Shown here piece after piece: positions 15,401-60,900 of a DNA stretch of 63,917 nucleotides. Source of the DNA: Stylophora pistillata (taxonomy: Eukaryota); NCBI RefSeq assembly GCF_002571385.2, contig NW_019217843.1, forward strand, positions 468,449 through 532,365, given 5' to 3'. Position numbers: made by a program. Within the stretch, counting starts at the first letter, position 1; each line of letters starts with the position of its first letter.

Positions 15401-18400
15401 GACTATAAATCTTCTCCTTTTTTCACTGCGTATAATTTCCCATATGACGCTCACTCTGGCAGTCGAATCAAAATGGCCGCATTCAATTGGCATCGCATCG
15501 AATGATGTCTTTTTGGGTGTGCTCGAATGCACATCTAAGCAATTAAAAGTGATATTAAATTTTCTAAGCAAATTGGTTCATTTTTATGTTTGAATGTTGA
15601 AGTAACTCATTGTCTGCACTTAGATGATCTAAATAGAAGTGAAGAAAGAGAAGAAAGAATTGATCCTGGCAAGATGAGCGCGGAGAGTTTGGCGCCTTTT
15701 ACCAACAACTCATTGCCTCAGTTTTGTATCTAAACGCCTTTCTTTCTCGGCATGCATTTTACTCAGTGATAACTGTTCTCATTATAAAACTTGGTATTTT
15801 GCCGCGGAAATCTCAGTTTTGTTATCGCCTCAGCATGTTTCAGCATCGCCGAAAGTGATACTAAAAAATCAAGCTTTCATCGCAAGTCGGTAAATGGAAA
15901 TCCCAGTTCGATCTGCACATCCCAGATTCTCGTGTTTTGTATTCTATATTTTCGGCAAATCCTGAGCACAGGTTGGTATAGATATATAACATCATCTTTA
16001 CTTGCCCTGACCAAAAAAAGAAACAGAAAAACTAGTGCAATCGGATAAACTTCGCAAATATCCAGCAATGAGATACTGGACAAAGTTTTTAATCAGCTAT
16101 CAGAGCCATTCAGCTCCCTATTTCATTTCTTCCTTCTTTCTTAGCAAAAATCCTCGCCTTCTGTTCTTAAATCTTTGTTAGCCACGAAGGTCATCAAATA
16201 TTTCAAACCTCACTTGATACACGTCGCATATTAGGCGCTCAAGCTTGTTCAAAATTCAGACTTATTCTTGTTTGTAACGATACTTTTATTTTGTCAGAAA
16301 TATGCGGGCCACAACCATTTTGGGTTTCTTGTTGTCAGCCGTCCTTAGCCTATGTTCAGCGGACATTTACCTCCACTTTCCTCACGGTAGCAACAATAGA
16401 CTGAACGGTAACGGCGCAAATGTCAGGAATGCCAACAGGCTGTTTGACTCTCAGGTGGGTGTGTTTAAAGGAAAACCTCGCCTTTTGTATGGCGCGGGGT
16501 GAAATTGAAACACGTATTTAAATAATTATTCAGTCGTTCGCAAACGAAATCTAACCTACGGCTGAAAATGTCCATTGACTTATCCAGCTCATGTCACGAA
16601 AAGAGACAAATTCGTCTTTCTCGTACGTATTGACTATTTGTGACTTTTTTTGTAGAACAATGGTAAAGCCGGTTACAATGTTGGAGACAGCGGAATTAAC
16701 GCCACTAAAAACAACATAACGGAAACGAGGCAGCGTCCATTGGTAAGACGTATTTTGATTATTTTTTTCTGCTTCTCTTCTCTTTCTGTTCCATTTTCAT
16801 TCTTGGTTCCACAGGAAGAATAAACGTTTTAAGGTGGGGGTACACCCAAAAAATTTTCAAATGTAAAATATAAATCGCCGTAATGATATGGTCCAATCGT
16901 TAGCAAAGAAGGTAAGACTTTTTTTTAAAGAAACTGTGGTGCTGGATTGGTGGGTGGAAATACAATATAACTTGGTTTTATCAACCAAGCTGATAAAGTA
17001 AATTAGTTCCGATAAAAAGTCTCTGAAGCCCTTTGTCATTCGCTCTGACAATCGGTACTAACTATCACCCCCGTAAGTATCGCTCTTTCCCATAATTCCA
17101 AAATGTATTAGCGTTTATGCCTCTTCCTGAACTTATCATTTTCTTCTTAATCCGAAGGAATTTTTCATGAGCGGTTGTGAAAAGGAAGAAAAAACTGAGG
17201 TTGAAATTATGTGGACAAATCAACATGGAACTGGACCAAAGAGTGAAGATATAGTGGAATCACAAATCATCCTGCAGTACATGTGTCAACCATATCCTCA
17301 AGGAAACGTAACTAATATCAATGAAGATTTCCAGCCGTACACCATCCGTAATGGTGCTTTACGTAACACGCAAGTATTCAGTGTCATTAGAAAAGAAGCT
17401 GATGTAGTGAATAAAGAGCGTGGATTGCATGAGCCTTTAGAATACTACAGAGCCTCACTGCGCAGACACAGAAACAAAGGTGACATATTCTATGATAGTC
17501 AACTTTCTACTAATCTCACTTCCACTTTTTGTATTAGTGACTAATTTCAGTCTTACTTCAGCTGAGAATTCAAAGATTACCATCACTGCGGAGCAGTGCT
17601 TCAGAGCAATACCAGTTTGAGGTTCGTAACTCCAACTGGGCCTGGAAGCCGGCGGAGAACATTATTAAAAGTCCCACACGAGTTTATACTTAGTAATAGT
17701 TCCTTTTACAATGCTTTAGTGTTTTTTATAAGCTACGTTATATCTCCCGCAATAACATCCTTCCTTGATTGTTCCTAATCCATTATACAGGTTTGTTTAC
17801 CGCTAATCAAAACCTAAAAGGTGACAGTGCAAAATTCACGAGACAGAACGCAAATGGGAAGAGAAGGGGGTATGAAGTACCAGAGGAACGTGATTACTAT
17901 CCCTACTGGGGCCCAACCCCTTGGAAGGACATTGCAATCATGGCCAGTGACGAAAAAACAAAAGGATTGATAAGAGAATATGTAAACAGTCCAAATTATG
18001 GCGAAAAGGGTAAGTTTTTCAACGAGTTCCCTTCATAAGAGTCGTCGATAGCTGTGCAAGTGCAAGTGTCGTGAAATGATGCTCTTCGATTTATTTTCAG
18101 GGTTGTGCATTTTAAAGAATGGTGTAAAAATTGGTCGTCGCCGAAATCTCTGTCCAAGAATACCTCCAGTTAACAGACGAAACACGGAGTGCGTGGCCAA
18201 GTTCATTACACAGGCCTTGTGCGAAAATGCAGGAGGAAAGTGGACCGTGGTAAAAACGAACTTTAAAGAAAAGTTATCCGGCGTCAATTCTTGTGCCAAC
18301 ATTAATACTGTCAAGGGCGTGGCGTATGAGCCTCATCTGATAACACAGGGTACAGGCGAGGGCGAGCAGGATCTTGTTCTGGCAGACCCCCCTGAGGTTT

Positions 18401-57900: not shown

Positions 57901-60900
57901 TATCCTGAATGATTGAAAATCCAGCCCTATAATTAACACGCACTAGTTATTCATCATGATCAACCAGAGAGCGCCTTACTCTCCTATTTTACAACACCAG
58001 CATTTTACCATCATAACATAAATAAATGAACATTCGTGATCTTTGGTCTGATGGCTTTTCCGTTAGTTCCACGTCATGAAGCTCCATGAAAACGAATAAA
58101 ATAAAAACGAATGGAAAGAAAACAAGCAGCACAGGGATTTGATCCAAACTGGATTATACCTTGGTAAACTTACGCGTCCAAAACGTTTAGACCGATTGGT
58201 CCGATTCACAAAAAGACTAAAGTGGGAAACTATCGTTTACATATCGATTATTAGTATTCTTTTCTTCACAGGGTTAAAAACAATCCGAAAACTAAAACAA
58301 CTGACAATAAGAGCGATCTACAAATCGCTTTGAACACTGCCCAGCTCAGCAGAACTTTCCAAGATAGAAGTCATGTGATGATCCTTAAACCACGCAGCAT
58401 ACTGCCTGTGAAATTTCAGCGAAGCAGCATCTTCTACATCAATGGAATGGGCAAGAGAGGAAACATTGTGCAGGCGTATCCAGCCATGGAATATCGCTTT
58501 AACCCTGAGCGCCTCACTGTTACAACAGATGATGTAGTGTGTTTCGTTTGGTCCGGTAAGAAAGAACGAACTGTTTTGAACTGTTTGTTTATTTATTCGT
58601 TTTTATCCATTTTCAATTTCTTTGTTTAATTATTTTTCTAATAGTTTACCTATTTCTTGCTCCTATCCGTAGGCTCAAACAACAATCAGAACAATGCTGG
58701 AGAAGGAACAGCGCGTAAGGAAAAAACTGCACATTTGAATTAATTAGGGACTCAACCGACGTAAAAAAATTAAACTTGAAAGTTTTCGATGTCTAATCGA
58801 TGTGCTTCCACTGATTGGTAAAACACAGCCGAGTGAACTCAATCTGACAAGTATACCGCTTAAAATACTTTTTATAATTTCAATTCAGGTACTGATCGCA
58901 CCAACGTCTGCTGGATAAAGGAAGGGTGCCAATCTCTCAAACCAGCAGCGTGTTCCAGCTTTCCGCTCGAAGTGGTTGACCATGTCGACAAATTTGATGC
59001 CGCCAAGTTAAATCTTCACCTTAACAAAGGCTGCTATACTGGCGGAGCCCTGCAGGCTCAACTGAACAACGCCCCAGCCTCTTGTAACCCGCCATGCTTC
59101 CGCATCACGAAACCAGGGCAGTACTGTTACATGGGCACGCGCAATAACAACTTCTCCAACCGACGTCACATCGGACACATAACAGTTACTAAAGCTAAAG
59201 CTTCTCCTGAATAAACTAAATTAGCGAATAACTCTAGAAACACAGAGCAAGGAACGCTTCTCAAATAGCCAGAGAGATTCAAACTGATGTACAAGTTCGT
59301 CCAGACTTTCTTTGTTTTGCTTGATGGTTGATTTTTTGGTTTTGTTTTGTTTGTTATGTAGAGACGAAGGTTTTAATTAAAAGTTAAGATTTTTGTCTAA
59401 TCCCGCTTTTTCTGTAACGCTCACCGACAAGGTTGTATCGTCCCGTGAATAGTCTCTTCACGATCATGGTCACGGAATTCACGATCACGGTAAATGAGTC
59501 TACTAGACAAACCCCTCCTAATCAGATCCCACCACAGGCGTCCCAAGCTCACGTCTCGGGCAAAAGCGAAGGATTATTTCATGAAAGCGTCCCGCGTTGT
59601 GTGACGCGGTGTTACGCGAGCAACCGTTGAGAATTTGAATGCGTTATAAGGAATAGTATGGGGAACAAAATATGGTCCATTTAAAACACTAAATATTCCG
59701 AAATATCACTGTGATGGCAAAACAAGCCCAAAAAGGCAGAAATCGCCAAAAAACACGACGGAAACACAAGGAATGAGTAAGTTTTATTAATCTAACGTGT
59801 AAAATATTCATATGTTGCGCTCTACTTTATGTATCGAACACTGTAATACGGAAAAATCGAAACGCAGACTTCCTAATTCGCTCCAAGTTAACTCTTGTTG
59901 AGCATTCTATGATAATCCGCAATGGAAAAGTTCAACATTGGCTTCTCCAAAAAGAATATTCCTCGCAGAACGACTATTTACAACGACTTGTCGAAAAACA
60001 CCAGCAGTTTTTAGGTAGAATGCGCTGAAAAGCTTACTTCTTCCTCTTCTCAACCCCGACACGATCAACCCCTCGAAAGACACATACGGCTTCAAGTCTA
60101 CCAAGAACCCCCCTCTGATCGACGAACTAAAGGAATTTGAAGACGACATGTTCAAGATGATACAATCGACGAAATTCAAGAAAGTGAACAACTCTTTCCT
60201 CAACAAGCTGAAAGACGATACCGAATGCATTCAAAACGAAACCAAGCTTCCCATCGCCGCTGACAAAACAACGAACTTTAACAAACTAGAACCGTCAACA
60301 TAGAACACCCTACTTGAACAAAACATCACCAAGTCCTACAAAAAAGCACAAGCCAATACCACACGGGCCGTCCATTCAGAAAACAAAAACATCTACAAAA
60401 TTGGGCATCGATGACAGGGTGTACACCATAACTAACAAAGACGCATTCATAACACTGAAAGACCACAAACCGAAATTCGCTAACAAACCGACCTGCCGAC
60501 TTATCAACCCCACCAAATCCGAGCTAGGCAGAATCACCAAAAGAATCCTCGACAGAATCAACAACAAAATCACGAGAGCAACTAAATTCAACCAATGGAA
60601 AACACGGCATCCGTGATAGAGTGGTTCAAAGCCATTAAAAACAAACACCACCACAGTTTTATTTGCTTTGACAACGCAGAATTCTACCCATTAGTCAAGA
60701 AGTTAGTGGTAACATACTAACTATGGTGGGAAGCTTCCTTCTTTCCCAACTGCAAAACCTTAACATTAATGTCGGGCTTTACCGAAACAACAGACTGGCC
60801 ATTTCCAACGCCTCAATGAGGGAAAGTGAAAACATCAAAAAGGAAATATGTCGCATCTTCAATCACAATGGACTATGGATCATCATCGAAGCCATCAAAC

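What the first reader, a model, noticed from the sequence alone, without database searches (positions are those of the whole stretch)
16302..59214. Four-copy tandem array of secreted DD3-3-like genes at different stages of birth and death
Seen: four head-to-tail paralogues share the same 9-exon structure and intron phases. One is intact, one has a weak splice donor, one has a single frameshift and one is destroyed. Copies 1, 2 and 4 have an N-terminal signal-peptide-like stretch and no C-terminal transmembrane segment. Known: DD3-3 was described in Dictyostelium and, to my knowledge, has no established molecular function. Inference: local expansion and turnover of a secreted Cys-containing protein family is the pattern of immune, symbiosis, mucus or skeletal-matrix effectors. 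This is the best candidate in the window for an uncharacterised system.
Basis: partly seen in the sequence, partly recalled or inferred. Interest (0 to 1): 0.7.

Follow-up and report, generated by a model that had tools for sequence, protein, structure and literature searches.

The report
Coral DD3-3-like tandem gene cluster
Four neighbouring copies of a poorly understood secreted-protein gene in a stony coral, of which one is clearly working, two carry one small defect each and one is a wreck: a normal example of gene-family turnover in a family whose job is still unknown.

Summary
The window is Stylophora pistillata DNA. It carries four head-to-tail + strand DD3-3-like paralogues with the same 9 exons and intron phases.

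- **Copy 1** (16302-22071) is intact. It matches a 633-aa transcript-derived database protein at 99.3%.
- **Copy 2** (25919-31771) has a fully open frame and dN/dS 0.24 against copy 1. It has lost the GT of the exon-8 donor; two in-frame rescues are possible.
- **Copy 4** (54735-59214) has one net +1 frameshift in exon 5.
- **Copy 3** (35605-48268) is a decayed pseudogene.

The proteins have a signal peptide and no membrane anchor. They match no Pfam family. The models are confident, mostly beta, and include a cupredoxin-fold domain without a conserved copper site.

The cluster is old. Two subfamilies share a contig, with nearby locus tags, in other corals, and copy 4 pairs with a Pocillopora protein. 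Strong conservation argues against fast-evolving effectors. This is ordinary birth-and-death in an uncharacterised family.

The parts
16302..22071 (+). Copy 1: intact, expressed DD3-3-like gene (9 exons, 633 codons plus stop)
   Evidence: Exons 16302-16454, 16656-16742, 17158-17479, 17791-18009, 18101-18524, 19041-19097, 19982-20265, 21229-21273 and 21761-22071, all with AG/GT boundaries. It is 99.3% identical over 606 aligned residues to P0001, a 633-aa protein from a 2363-nt contig of the Logan source, which I read as a spliced transcript.
25919..31771 (+). Copy 2: fully open frame, colinear with copy 1, but the ancestral exon-8 donor is lost
   Evidence: Exons 25919-26071, 26420-26506 (donor GTTAGA), 26787-27108, 27691-27909, 28098-28521, 28995-29051, 30193-30476, 30983-31027 and 31461-31771 total 1902 nt with no stop codon. 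dN/dS against copy 1 is 0.24 and dS is 0.56. It keeps 23 of 23 testable invariant residues. No database protein of its own was found; the best match is 77-78% identical.
31010..31033 (+). Copy 2 exon-8 donor region: ancestral donor position reads AG (31028-31029); a GT at 31029-31030 would shift the frame; an in-frame GTGAAG lies at 31010
   Evidence: Read directly from the sequence. Using 31010 would give a 27-nt exon 8 that is still phase 1-1. Exon 8 (45 nt) is itself phase 1-1, so skipping it also keeps the frame. Which of these is used, if any, is an inference.
35605..48268 (+). Copy 3: decayed pseudogene stretched to 12.7 kb
   Evidence: Lesions by exon (unless stated):
- Exon 1: 33-nt deletion removing the conserved YLHFPxGSNN motif.
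- Exon 2: net -2 nt.
- Exon 3: matches for only 77 nt.
- Exon 4: 13-nt deletion.
- Exon 5: four separate 1-nt deletions plus deletions of 5 and 3 nt, and a donor changed from GT to GA.
- Exon 8: 1 nt shorter than copy 1 at its start, by eye.
- Exon 9: 14 indels, net +40 nt.

The exon-7 amino-acid branch is 0.37, against 0.09-0.14 for the other copies.
40356..43011 (+). Inside copy 3: a 99.7-99.8% direct duplication (40356-41544 and 41699-43011) carrying exon 2 and the exon-3 stub, with a 41-nt x 4.9 tandem repeat of exon-3 sequence (42322-42522)
   Evidence: A single N at 41014 sits at the point where exon 3 breaks off, so this part may be an assembly problem. The N was not filled.
54735..59214 (+). 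Copy 4: subfamily-B gene, complete except for one frameshift
   Evidence: Exons 54735-54887, 55764-55850, 55957-56284, 56397-56615, 56724-57151, 57727-57783, 58272-58555, 58673-58714 and 58889-59214 total 1924 nt, which is 3n+1. All splice sites are canonical. It keeps 23 of 23 testable invariant residues.
57059..57076 (+). Copy 4 exon-5 frameshift site (net +1 nt at a GGG run, 57070-57072)
   Evidence: The frame that starts at the exon's 5' end reads ...NHNGMNI. The frame anchored at its 3' end reads GKFSSYKWKVPCF.... The NCBI model P0026 skips about 24 residues here.

Best explanation
This is an old tandem cluster of DD3-3-like genes in Stylophora pistillata, evolving by slow birth-and-death.

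Shown:
- There are four head-to-tail paralogues with an identical 9-exon, same-phase structure.
- Copies 1-3 belong to one scleractinian subfamily (A) and copy 4 to another (B).
- Copy 1 is intact and matches what I read as a transcript-derived protein.
- Copy 2 has an uninterrupted 633-codon frame that has evolved under purifying selection, but it has lost the GT of its exon-8 donor.
- Copy 4 has one net +1 frameshift.
- Copy 3 is a long-dead pseudogene.

Inferred:
- Copies 2 and 4 were hit very recently, or are still usable. Copy 2 could use an in-frame donor 18 nt upstream or skip the symmetric 45-nt exon 8, which encodes a variable, low-confidence loop. The copy 4 lesion could be specific to one individual or to the assembly.
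- The products are secreted, N-glycosylated, disulfide-rich (16 Cys in the mature copy-1 protein), mostly-beta extracellular proteins. They contain a cupredoxin-fold domain that lacks a family-wide copper site.

Most likely mode of action (about 0.3, inferred): a soluble extracellular protein that binds or modifies one conserved ligand, such as a glycan, matrix component or metal, at epithelial surfaces. The site would be built from the family-invariant charged and His residues. This is more likely than a variable recognition effector.

The confidence given (0.7) is for the genomic and evolutionary account and the secreted, cupredoxin-like nature of the products. It is not for the mode of action.
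For: Array and structure.

Species and family:
- Exon 5 of copy 1 gave 23 proteins with E<=1e-3 among 109 candidates. All the named ones are coral 'DD3-3(-like)' or hypothetical proteins.
- P0026, 'Protein DD3-3 [Stylophora pistillata]', is 100% identical to copy-4 exons.
- The family has 1944 representatives at E<=1e-3.

Expression of copy 1: P0001 is 99.3% identical to it.

Constraint:
- dN/dS is 0.24.
- 23 of 23 testable invariant residues are kept in copies 1, 2 and 4, and 74, 74 and 73 of 74 near-invariant residues. Copy 3 keeps 20 of 25.

Decay of copy 3.

Age of the cluster:
- Copy 4 is sister to Pocillopora P0011 in the exon 5, 7 and 9 trees (SH-aLRT 91, 94, 88).
- Copies 1 and 2 sit in a pocilloporid clade with P0002 and P0003 in the exon 3, 5 and 9 trees (95, 90, 93).
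- Oculina proteins of both subfamilies (locus tags 5691, 5695, 5699, 5700) share one contig, and so do Desmophyllum proteins (17074, 17076, 17080).

Protein:
- The P0001 model has pLDDT 86.7 and pTM 0.90.
- For the model of P0021, an Orbicella fragment covering the C-terminal two thirds, 33 PDB matches had E<=0.001. All of those listed are cupredoxins or copper nitrite reductases. AcoP, plastocyanin and pseudoazurin gave target-normalised TM 0.48-0.65.
- The 29 coral proteins all end without a long tail, and P0001 has hydrophobic windows only at its N-terminus.
- The NITT sequon at N404 is invariant.
Against: - No transcript-derived protein was found for copies 2 or 4. The tool itself warns that finding none is weak evidence.
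- The copy-4 frameshift is seen only in this assembly. P0026 comes from a model built on what appears to be the same sequence, so it is not an independent check.
- Exon trees are short (72-141 columns), used the quick method, and have few starred branches. The exon-4 tree does not recover the copy 1/2 clade.
- Whole-protein fold matches are poor, with TM 0.13-0.24. Only one domain is convincingly cupredoxin-like.
- The function is not tested by anything here.
- Published hints point towards recognition or immunity rather than a conserved-ligand role: an ascidian haemocyte self-marker-like protein (abstract and passages of PMC6916515) and induction by microbial patterns in a sponge (passages of PMC6208332).
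Confidence: 0.7

Rival explanations
1. Three live genes and one pseudogene. Copy 2 splices in frame, either through the upstream donor or by skipping exon 8. The copy-4 frameshift is an assembly or single-individual error. Only copy 3 is dead, so there is no graded series of decay.
For: - Copies 2 and 4 have no stop codon and no other indel across about 633 and 639 codons.
- They keep 23 of 23 testable invariant residues.
- dN/dS is 0.24 for copy 2.
- The copy-4 lesion is a net single extra base at a GGG run.
- Exon 8 is phase 1-1 and lies in a block with mean pLDDT 69.
Against: - No matching full-length protein was found in the 5.8-billion-protein set for either copy, although copy 1 has one.
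- NCBI's own model had to skip about 24 residues to pass the frameshift.
- The canonical exon-8 donor of copy 2 is plainly absent.
Confidence: 0.3
2. One reading: a fast-turnover family of secreted effectors for immunity, allorecognition, symbiosis, mucus or skeletal matrix. The copies would diversify under positive selection.
For: - Tandem duplication with pseudogenes.
- Copy number differs among corals.
- An Oculina paralogue gained three F5/8 type C lectin-like domains.
- The ascidian homologue HrSMLP1 is a haemocyte surface glycoprotein linked to allorecognition (PMC6916515, abstract and passages).
- A sponge homologue was up-regulated 3 h after exposure to microbial patterns (PMC6208332, passages).
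- A DD3-3 protein was enriched in Pocillopora acuta settlers (PMC12960093, passages).
Against: - Purifying selection between paralogues, with omega 0.11-0.47 for the eight exons where it could be computed.
- 25 invariant and 74 near-invariant columns across 60 sequences that are only 33-42% identical outside the corals.
- Orthologue-like pairs with Pocillopora.
- P0001, presumably from another individual, differs from the window's copy 1 at only 0.7% of 606 aligned residues. A hypervariable self-marker would be expected to differ more.
Confidence: 0.15
3. A copper-dependent extracellular redox enzyme or electron carrier, as the cupredoxin and nitrite-reductase fold matches and the label 'SOD domain-containing' in one paper would suggest.
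For: - All listed PDB fold matches with E<=0.001 are blue-copper proteins or copper nitrite reductases: 17 for the whole model and 33 for the fragment model.
- Conserved histidines: H103 in 59 of 60 sequences, H171 in 53, H370 in 52, H455 in 51 and H25 in 49.
- Coral sequences have C612...H626-M627 just before the last strand.
Against: - The type-1 ligand set is not conserved in the family. Position 612 is Cys in 21 of 60, position 626 is His in 23 of 60 (Gln in 36), and position 627 is Lys in 37 of 60.
- The spacing Cys-x13-His-Met does not fit the blue-copper loop as I recall it.
- There is no sequence match to any PDB chain or any Pfam copper family.
- I could not inspect model coordinates, so I do not know whether the histidines cluster.
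Confidence: 0.12
4. Assembly artefact: the 'copies' are uncollapsed haplotypes or mis-joined repeats, not real paralogues.
For: - The window has four single Ns and a 562-N gap.
- Inside copy 3 there is a 99.7-99.8% identical 1.2-kb duplication beside an N.
Against: - By P0001, whose own copy is copy 1, copies 2, 3 and 4 are 78%, 55% and 61% identical in protein. dS is 0.56 between copies 1 and 2. That is far beyond allelic divergence.
- The copies fall in different clades with other species' genes.
- Only the internal duplication in copy 3 is suspect.
Confidence: 0.02

Closest known systems
Protein DD3-3 of Dictyostelium discoideum and the animal 'DD3-3-like' proteins (no Pfam model)
   Same: - There is full-length homology to proteins that NCBI and UniRef name DD3-3(-like), and an Atlas cluster is named 'Protein DD3-3 family protein' (score 0.92).
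- They share an N-terminal signal sequence, N-glycosylation sequons and no known molecular function.
- As cited in PMC6208332 (passage), a Dictyostelium knockout aggregates faster and has compromised cAMP signalling.
   Different: - Dictyostelium DD3-3 is treated as a single-pass membrane protein (PMC10022678, passage).
- Of 142 family proteins that carry the C-terminal motif, 70 have a hydrophobic segment after it and 72 do not. All 29 coral proteins end shortly after the motif.
- The 20 coral sequences in alignment A1 also have a different cysteine pattern from the 40 others.
- I did not compare directly with the Dictyostelium sequence.
[quoted passage not shown]
   Same: It is described as a DD3-3-like glycoprotein with a signal sequence, conserved from Cnidaria to Chordata and absent from vertebrates (PMC6916515, abstract and passages).
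   Different: - HrSMLP1 is reported as a single-copy gene with seven exons. Its product is membrane-associated on haemocytes, and individual differences lie in spot patterns (modification).
- Here there are four tandem copies with nine exons, and the products look soluble.
- No sequence comparison with HrSMLP1 was made.
Cupredoxins (plastocyanin, pseudoazurin, AcoP) and two-domain copper nitrite reductases
   Same: One domain of the modelled protein has the cupredoxin fold, with probability 1.00 and target-normalised TM 0.48-0.65.
   Different: - Sequence identity in these matches is only 9-17%.
- There is no conserved Cys/His/Met copper ligand set.
- The whole-protein superposition on nitrite reductase is poor, with TM 0.13-0.25 and rmsd 9-18 A.
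- The protein is about 630 residues long and has further beta domains.
Tandem gene clusters evolving by birth-and-death (the general model for multigene families)
   Same: The paralogues are head-to-tail, live genes and pseudogenes are mixed, copy number differs between species, and there are patches of unusually high similarity between copies. Exons 4-5 and exon 9 have dS 0.29-0.40, against 0.63-1.40 in exons 1-3, 6 and 7.
   Different: There is no sign of the diversifying selection typical of immune-type clusters. The two subfamilies are old and conserved.

Membership tests
DD3-3 / DD3-3-like protein family | Significant homology, over the whole length, to proteins named DD3-3(-like) | tested here: met
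   Exon-by-exon searches gave E of 1e-29 to 1e-92 against coral DD3-3-like proteins. P0001, the product of copy 1, finds 1944 representatives at E<=1e-3, many aligned from about residue 10 to 630.
DD3-3 / DD3-3-like protein family | Direct similarity to the founding Dictyostelium discoideum DD3-3 sequence | not tested
   No tool gave me that sequence under its name, and I did not type it from memory. Membership rests on the sources' names and on the phylogeny reported in PMC6916515.
DD3-3 / DD3-3-like protein family | Retention of the family-invariant residues (25 columns in a 60-sequence alignment) | tested here: met
   Copies 1, 2 and 4 keep 23 of the 23 that lie inside exons. The other two, R402 and G516, are split codons. 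By eye they read R and G in all three. Copy 3 keeps 20 of 25.
DD3-3 / DD3-3-like protein family | C-terminal transmembrane anchor, as in the Dictyostelium protein | tested here: not met
   P0001, the copy-1 product, has no 19-residue window with mean hydropathy >=1.6 outside its signal peptide. Copies 1, 2 and 4 each end 9-16 residues after the last conserved motif. The feature is not universal in the family: 70 of 142 have it and 72 do not. This therefore marks a soluble sub-form, not exclusion from the family.
Cupredoxin (blue copper protein) superfamily | Greek-key beta-sandwich cupredoxin fold | tested here: met
   Foldseek of the P0021 model against PDB gave AcoP, plastocyanin and pseudoazurin with probability 1.00 and TM (target) 0.48-0.65. 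This was tested on an Orbicella homologue fragment, not on a window copy. The whole P0001 model gave only copper nitrite reductases, with TM 0.21-0.24.
Cupredoxin (blue copper protein) superfamily | Type-1 copper ligands (His, Cys, His, Met) in the usual loop (pattern recalled) | tested here: not met
   No such set is conserved. Position 612 is Cys in 21 of 60, position 626 is His in 23 of 60, and position 627 is Lys in 37 of 60. Corals do have C612 and H626-M627, but with spacing that does not fit the recalled loop.
Secreted protein | Cleavable N-terminal signal peptide | tested here: inconclusive
   The N-termini have a basic start, 12-15 hydrophobic residues, then C-S-A, C-S-G or C-I-L before a conserved D-[IM]-Y-L-H. 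No signal-peptide predictor was available. Copy 4 has L where its closest relatives have S just before the conserved Asp.

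The most novel reading that the evidence does not exclude
The DD3-3 family would be an unrecognised, ancient class of extracellular cupredoxin-fold proteins with a conserved His/acidic active or metal site. In that case stony corals keep a conserved two-subfamily tandem cluster of a soluble, cysteine-rewired form. Its members are being gained and lost, and they act at the larval-settlement or tissue-contact surface. 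That would link them to the ascidian self-marker-like protein, and the cluster would then be a candidate coral surface-recognition or settlement locus.
Probability: 0.12. Interest if true: 0.6.

Novelty: new member of a known kind. Interest (0 to 1): 0.3.

Why it matters
DD3-3-like proteins are conserved from amoebae to ascidians, and about 1900 sequence clusters exist. Yet they have no Pfam model, no solved structure and no known molecular function.

This locus gives a clean, exon-level description of the coral genes. It shows that the public Stylophora model 'Protein DD3-3' (970 aa) is a chimera of a pseudogene and a frameshifted gene. It identifies copy 1 as the copy to use for expression or biochemistry. 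It also gives a first fold assignment: a cupredoxin-like domain without the usual copper ligands.

As a genome feature it is ordinary, a slowly turning-over tandem family.

Tried and rejected
- **Pfam:** scans of eight copy-1 region frames and of P0001, P0013 and P0017 found no family for the DD3-3 part. Only F5/8 type C domains appeared, in the Oculina protein.
- **PDB by sequence:** a profile of alignment A1 gave 0 hits at E<=1.
- **Viral fold library (BFVD):** 0 matches at E<=0.001.
- **ESM Atlas:** it returned only the family's own cnidarian clusters and made no structure search.
- **Prokaryote genome scan:** 29 stretches matched a pattern and 2 were confirmed. L001 is a 5.5-kb contig binned as Bacteroidetes, but its DD3-3-like ORF sits beside an Rpb2 with domains 4 and 5, so it is probably a protist or giant-virus contig. 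L002 matches residues 437-520 only, in a region without long ORFs. Neither gave useful operon context.
- **Intron identities:** global intron identities between copies 1 and 2 were uninformative with lenient gap scoring, and I draw nothing from them except that intron 4 is 83/91 identical.
- **Spliced models:** Trees and dN/dS are per exon.
- **Oligomer prediction:** not run. Two full-length chains exceed the size limit and I claim no binding.
- **Not available:** Metagenome contigs, viral contigs, supplementary tables of papers (skeletal, mucus and differential-expression lists) and any eukaryotic genome collection for synteny next to ABCD.

Full report
**What the window is.** It is 63,917 bases at about 39% G+C, with four single Ns and one 562-N gap. 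Exon-5 translations hit only stony-coral proteins. A 970-aa NCBI model, 'Protein DD3-3 [Stylophora pistillata]' (P0026), is 100% identical to copy-4 exons. The window is therefore S. pistillata nuclear DNA. An ABCD-type ABC transporter exon lies upstream on the minus strand at 7454-8425 (PF06472, E 4e-80).

**The observation.** A nucleotide self-comparison and tblastn of copy-1 frames show four colinear + strand units. P0001 is a 633-aa protein from a 2363-nt contig of the Logan source, which I read as a spliced transcript. I mapped it onto the window and fixed the junctions.
- Copy 1 has nine exons totalling 1902 nt, with phases 0,0,1,1,2,2,1,1 and AG/GT at every boundary. It is 99.3% identical to P0001 over 606 aligned residues, so it is intact and, on that reading, expressed.
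- Copies 2 and 4 have the same nine exons and phases.
- Copy 3 keeps recognisable remnants of all nine.

I searched exon by exon. The step of joining exons into spliced models of copies 2-4 was left out, so full-length analyses use the stored database proteins P0001 and P0021.

**State of each copy: copy 2.** Copy 2 is colinear with copy 1, with the same exon lengths and no stop codon in 633 codons. Summed over exons, dS is 0.56, dN is 0.135 and omega is 0.24.
- Its exon-2 donor is GTTAGA.
- More seriously, the position of the exon-8 donor reads AG-TAGT (31028 onward). The nearest GT (31029) would add one base and shift the frame.
- Two in-frame escapes exist. A GTGAAG 18 nt upstream (31010) would give a 27-nt exon. 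Alternatively, the phase 1-1, 45-nt exon could be skipped. It encodes a length-variable loop in a block of mean pLDDT 69.
- No database protein of 278 residues or more matches copy 2 better than 78%.

**State of each copy: copy 4.** All splice sites are canonical. It has one lesion, a net extra base within 57059-57076 in exon 5. The upstream frame ends ...NHNGMNI and the downstream frame resumes GKFSSYKW. The NCBI model steps over about 24 residues here and also fuses copy-3 fragments to copy 4. It is an annotation workaround, not independent evidence.

**State of each copy: copy 3.** Copy 3 has these lesions:
- A 33-nt deletion of the conserved N-terminal motif.
- Frame-breaking net indels in exons 2, 3, 4 and 9, six separate deletions in exon 5, and an exon 8 that is 1 nt shorter than copy 1 at its start (by eye).
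- An exon-5 donor changed from GT to GA.
- An exon 3 that matches for only 77 nt.
- A first intron of 4.6 kb.

It also contains a 99.7-99.8% internal duplication (40356-41544 and 41699-43011) beside an N, which may be an assembly problem.

Copies 1, 2 and 4 keep 23 of 23 testable family-invariant residues, and copy 3 keeps 20 of 25.

**Age and dynamics.** I built per-exon maximum-likelihood trees (quick search, LG+G4, 31-34 rows). Rows covering less than 60% of an exon were dropped, and the chimeric P0026 was left out.
- The trees show two scleractinian subfamilies.
- Copy 4 pairs with Pocillopora verrucosa P0011 in the exon 5, 7 and 9 trees (SH-aLRT 91, 94, 88). It sits in an unresolved fork with P0011 in exon 3, and one node away in exon 4.
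- Copies 1 and 2 fall with P0002 and P. verrucosa P0003 in the exon 3, 5 and 9 trees (95, 90, 93). In exons 3 and 5, copy 2 lies outside the group of copy 1, P0002 and P0003. The exon-4 tree does not recover this clade.
- Copy 3, testable only for exon 7, joins subfamily A on a long branch (0.37).
- In Oculina patagonica, proteins of both subfamilies (locus tags 5691, 5695, 5699, 5700) are on one contig. The same holds for Desmophyllum (17074, 17076, 17080), and four Montipora foliosa proteins share one contig.
- dS varies from 0.29-0.40 (exons 4, 5, 9) to 0.63-1.40 (exons 1-3, 6, 7). Intron 4 and the 3' UTR are also alike. In the exon-9 tree copy 2 is nearer to copy 1 than to P0002. This is consistent with patchy gene conversion.

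The cluster is therefore old, with lineage-specific gains and losses. It is not a recent local burst.

**The protein.**
- There is no Pfam family and no PDB sequence match. The family has 1944 representatives at E<=1e-3.
- A 60-sequence alignment has 25 invariant and 74 near-invariant columns, many of them charged. H103 is present in 59 of 60 sequences.
- The AlphaFold model of P0001 is confident (pLDDT 86.7, pTM 0.90) and mostly beta.
- Against PDB, the whole model gives only copper nitrite reductases: 17 matches at E<=0.001, with TM 0.13-0.24.
- A model of the 403-residue Orbicella fragment P0021 (pLDDT 80.2) gives 33 matches at E<=0.001. All of those listed are cupredoxins or nitrite reductases. 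AcoP, plastocyanin and pseudoazurin reach TM 0.48-0.65 when normalised by the target.
- A type-1 copper ligand set is not conserved.
- Corals differ from the 40 other sequences in cysteine pattern, and they have Cys where the others have His at position 511.
- Of 142 family proteins with the C-terminal motif, among the 178 held at that point, 70 have a hydrophobic segment after it and 72 do not. All 29 coral proteins end shortly after it.

**Literature.** The term 'DD3-3' occurs in 12 papers of the library. 'HrSMLP1', 'DDB_G0283095' or 'self-marker-like protein' occur in 3. I read passages only.
- PMC6916515 (abstract and passages): an ascidian DD3-3-like haemocyte glycoprotein tied to allorecognition.
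- PMC6208332: a sponge homologue up-regulated after exposure to microbial patterns, plus the Dictyostelium knockout phenotype as cited there.
- PMC12960093: a DD3-3 protein enriched in Pocillopora acuta settlers and called 'SOD domain-containing'.
- PMC10022678: Dictyostelium DD3-3 used as a single-pass membrane protein.
- Incidental listings in a sea-star preprint, a Ciona paper and a Baikal sponge paper.

None describes the coral cluster or a molecular function. Supplementary tables were closed, so membership in skeletal or mucus proteomes is unchecked.

**Verdict.** This is an ordinary, slowly evolving tandem family, but it belongs to a widespread and uncharacterised protein family. The function proposed here is an inference of low confidence: a soluble extracellular protein that binds or modifies a conserved ligand, built partly on a cupredoxin-like fold.

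Noticed in passing
window 22127-23101 (+): A 324-codon stop-to-stop frame lies directly 3' of copy 1. By eye its translation looks like the C-terminal part of a non-LTR (LINE) retrotransposon ORF2; that motif is recalled. There is no Pfam hit.
   Followed up: partly
window 20370-20494: An inverted fragment of exon 9, about 125 nt long, sits inside intron 7 of copy 1. It is 79% identical to 21921-32 of copy 1 itself and also matches exon 9 of copies 2 and 4.
   Followed up: no
window 42322-42522: A 41-nt unit repeated 4.9 times at 99% identity. The unit is made of exon-3 coding sequence (...ESQIILQYMCQ...) and lies in the second exon-3 stub of copy 3.
   Followed up: no
window 38082-38889: A 400-nt unit repeated twice (97% identity) in the expanded first intron of copy 3. 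Related sequence lies in inverted orientation at about 61013-61154.
   Followed up: no
window 11331-11460, 12402-12748, 19494-19750, 29119-29401: A dispersed repeat of about 130-290 nt (79-86% identity, both orientations) lies upstream of the array and in intron 6 of copies 1 and 2. It is probably a small mobile element.
   Followed up: no
window 7454-8425 (-): A long first exon of an ABCD-type (peroxisomal-type) ABC transporter lies upstream of the array on the opposite strand (PF06472, E 4e-80).
   Followed up: partly
window 35605-59214, compared with database protein P0026: The public gene model 'Protein DD3-3 [Stylophora pistillata]' (970 aa) is a chimera. It joins copy-3 pseudogene fragments to copy 4 and skips about 24 residues at the frameshift.
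   Followed up: yes
L001 3822-5513 (contig binned as an uncultured Bacteroidetes MAG): An intronless DD3-3-like ORF (37% identity, residues 15-632 matched) sits next to an RNA polymerase Rpb2 with domains 4 and 5. The contig looks like a protist or giant-virus sequence mis-binned as bacterial.
   Followed up: partly
database protein P0013 (Oculina patagonica, 1103 aa): This subfamily-B paralogue carries three F5/8 type C (discoidin) domains inserted in a loop of the C-terminal cupredoxin-like region.
   Followed up: no
alignment A1 (60 sequences): The 20 coral sequences share cysteines at positions 278, 291, 511, 544, 552, 598 and 602 that the 40 other sequences lack, and most of them also have Cys at 87, 325, 538 and 612. 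They lack the cysteines the others have at 105, 115, 180, 217, 245 and 360. This amounts to a rewired disulfide pattern.
   Followed up: partly
window 50576-51624 and 53190-54241: A 1.1-kb direct repeat (71% identity) lies in the 6.5-kb spacer between copies 3 and 4. Its nature was not examined.
   Followed up: no
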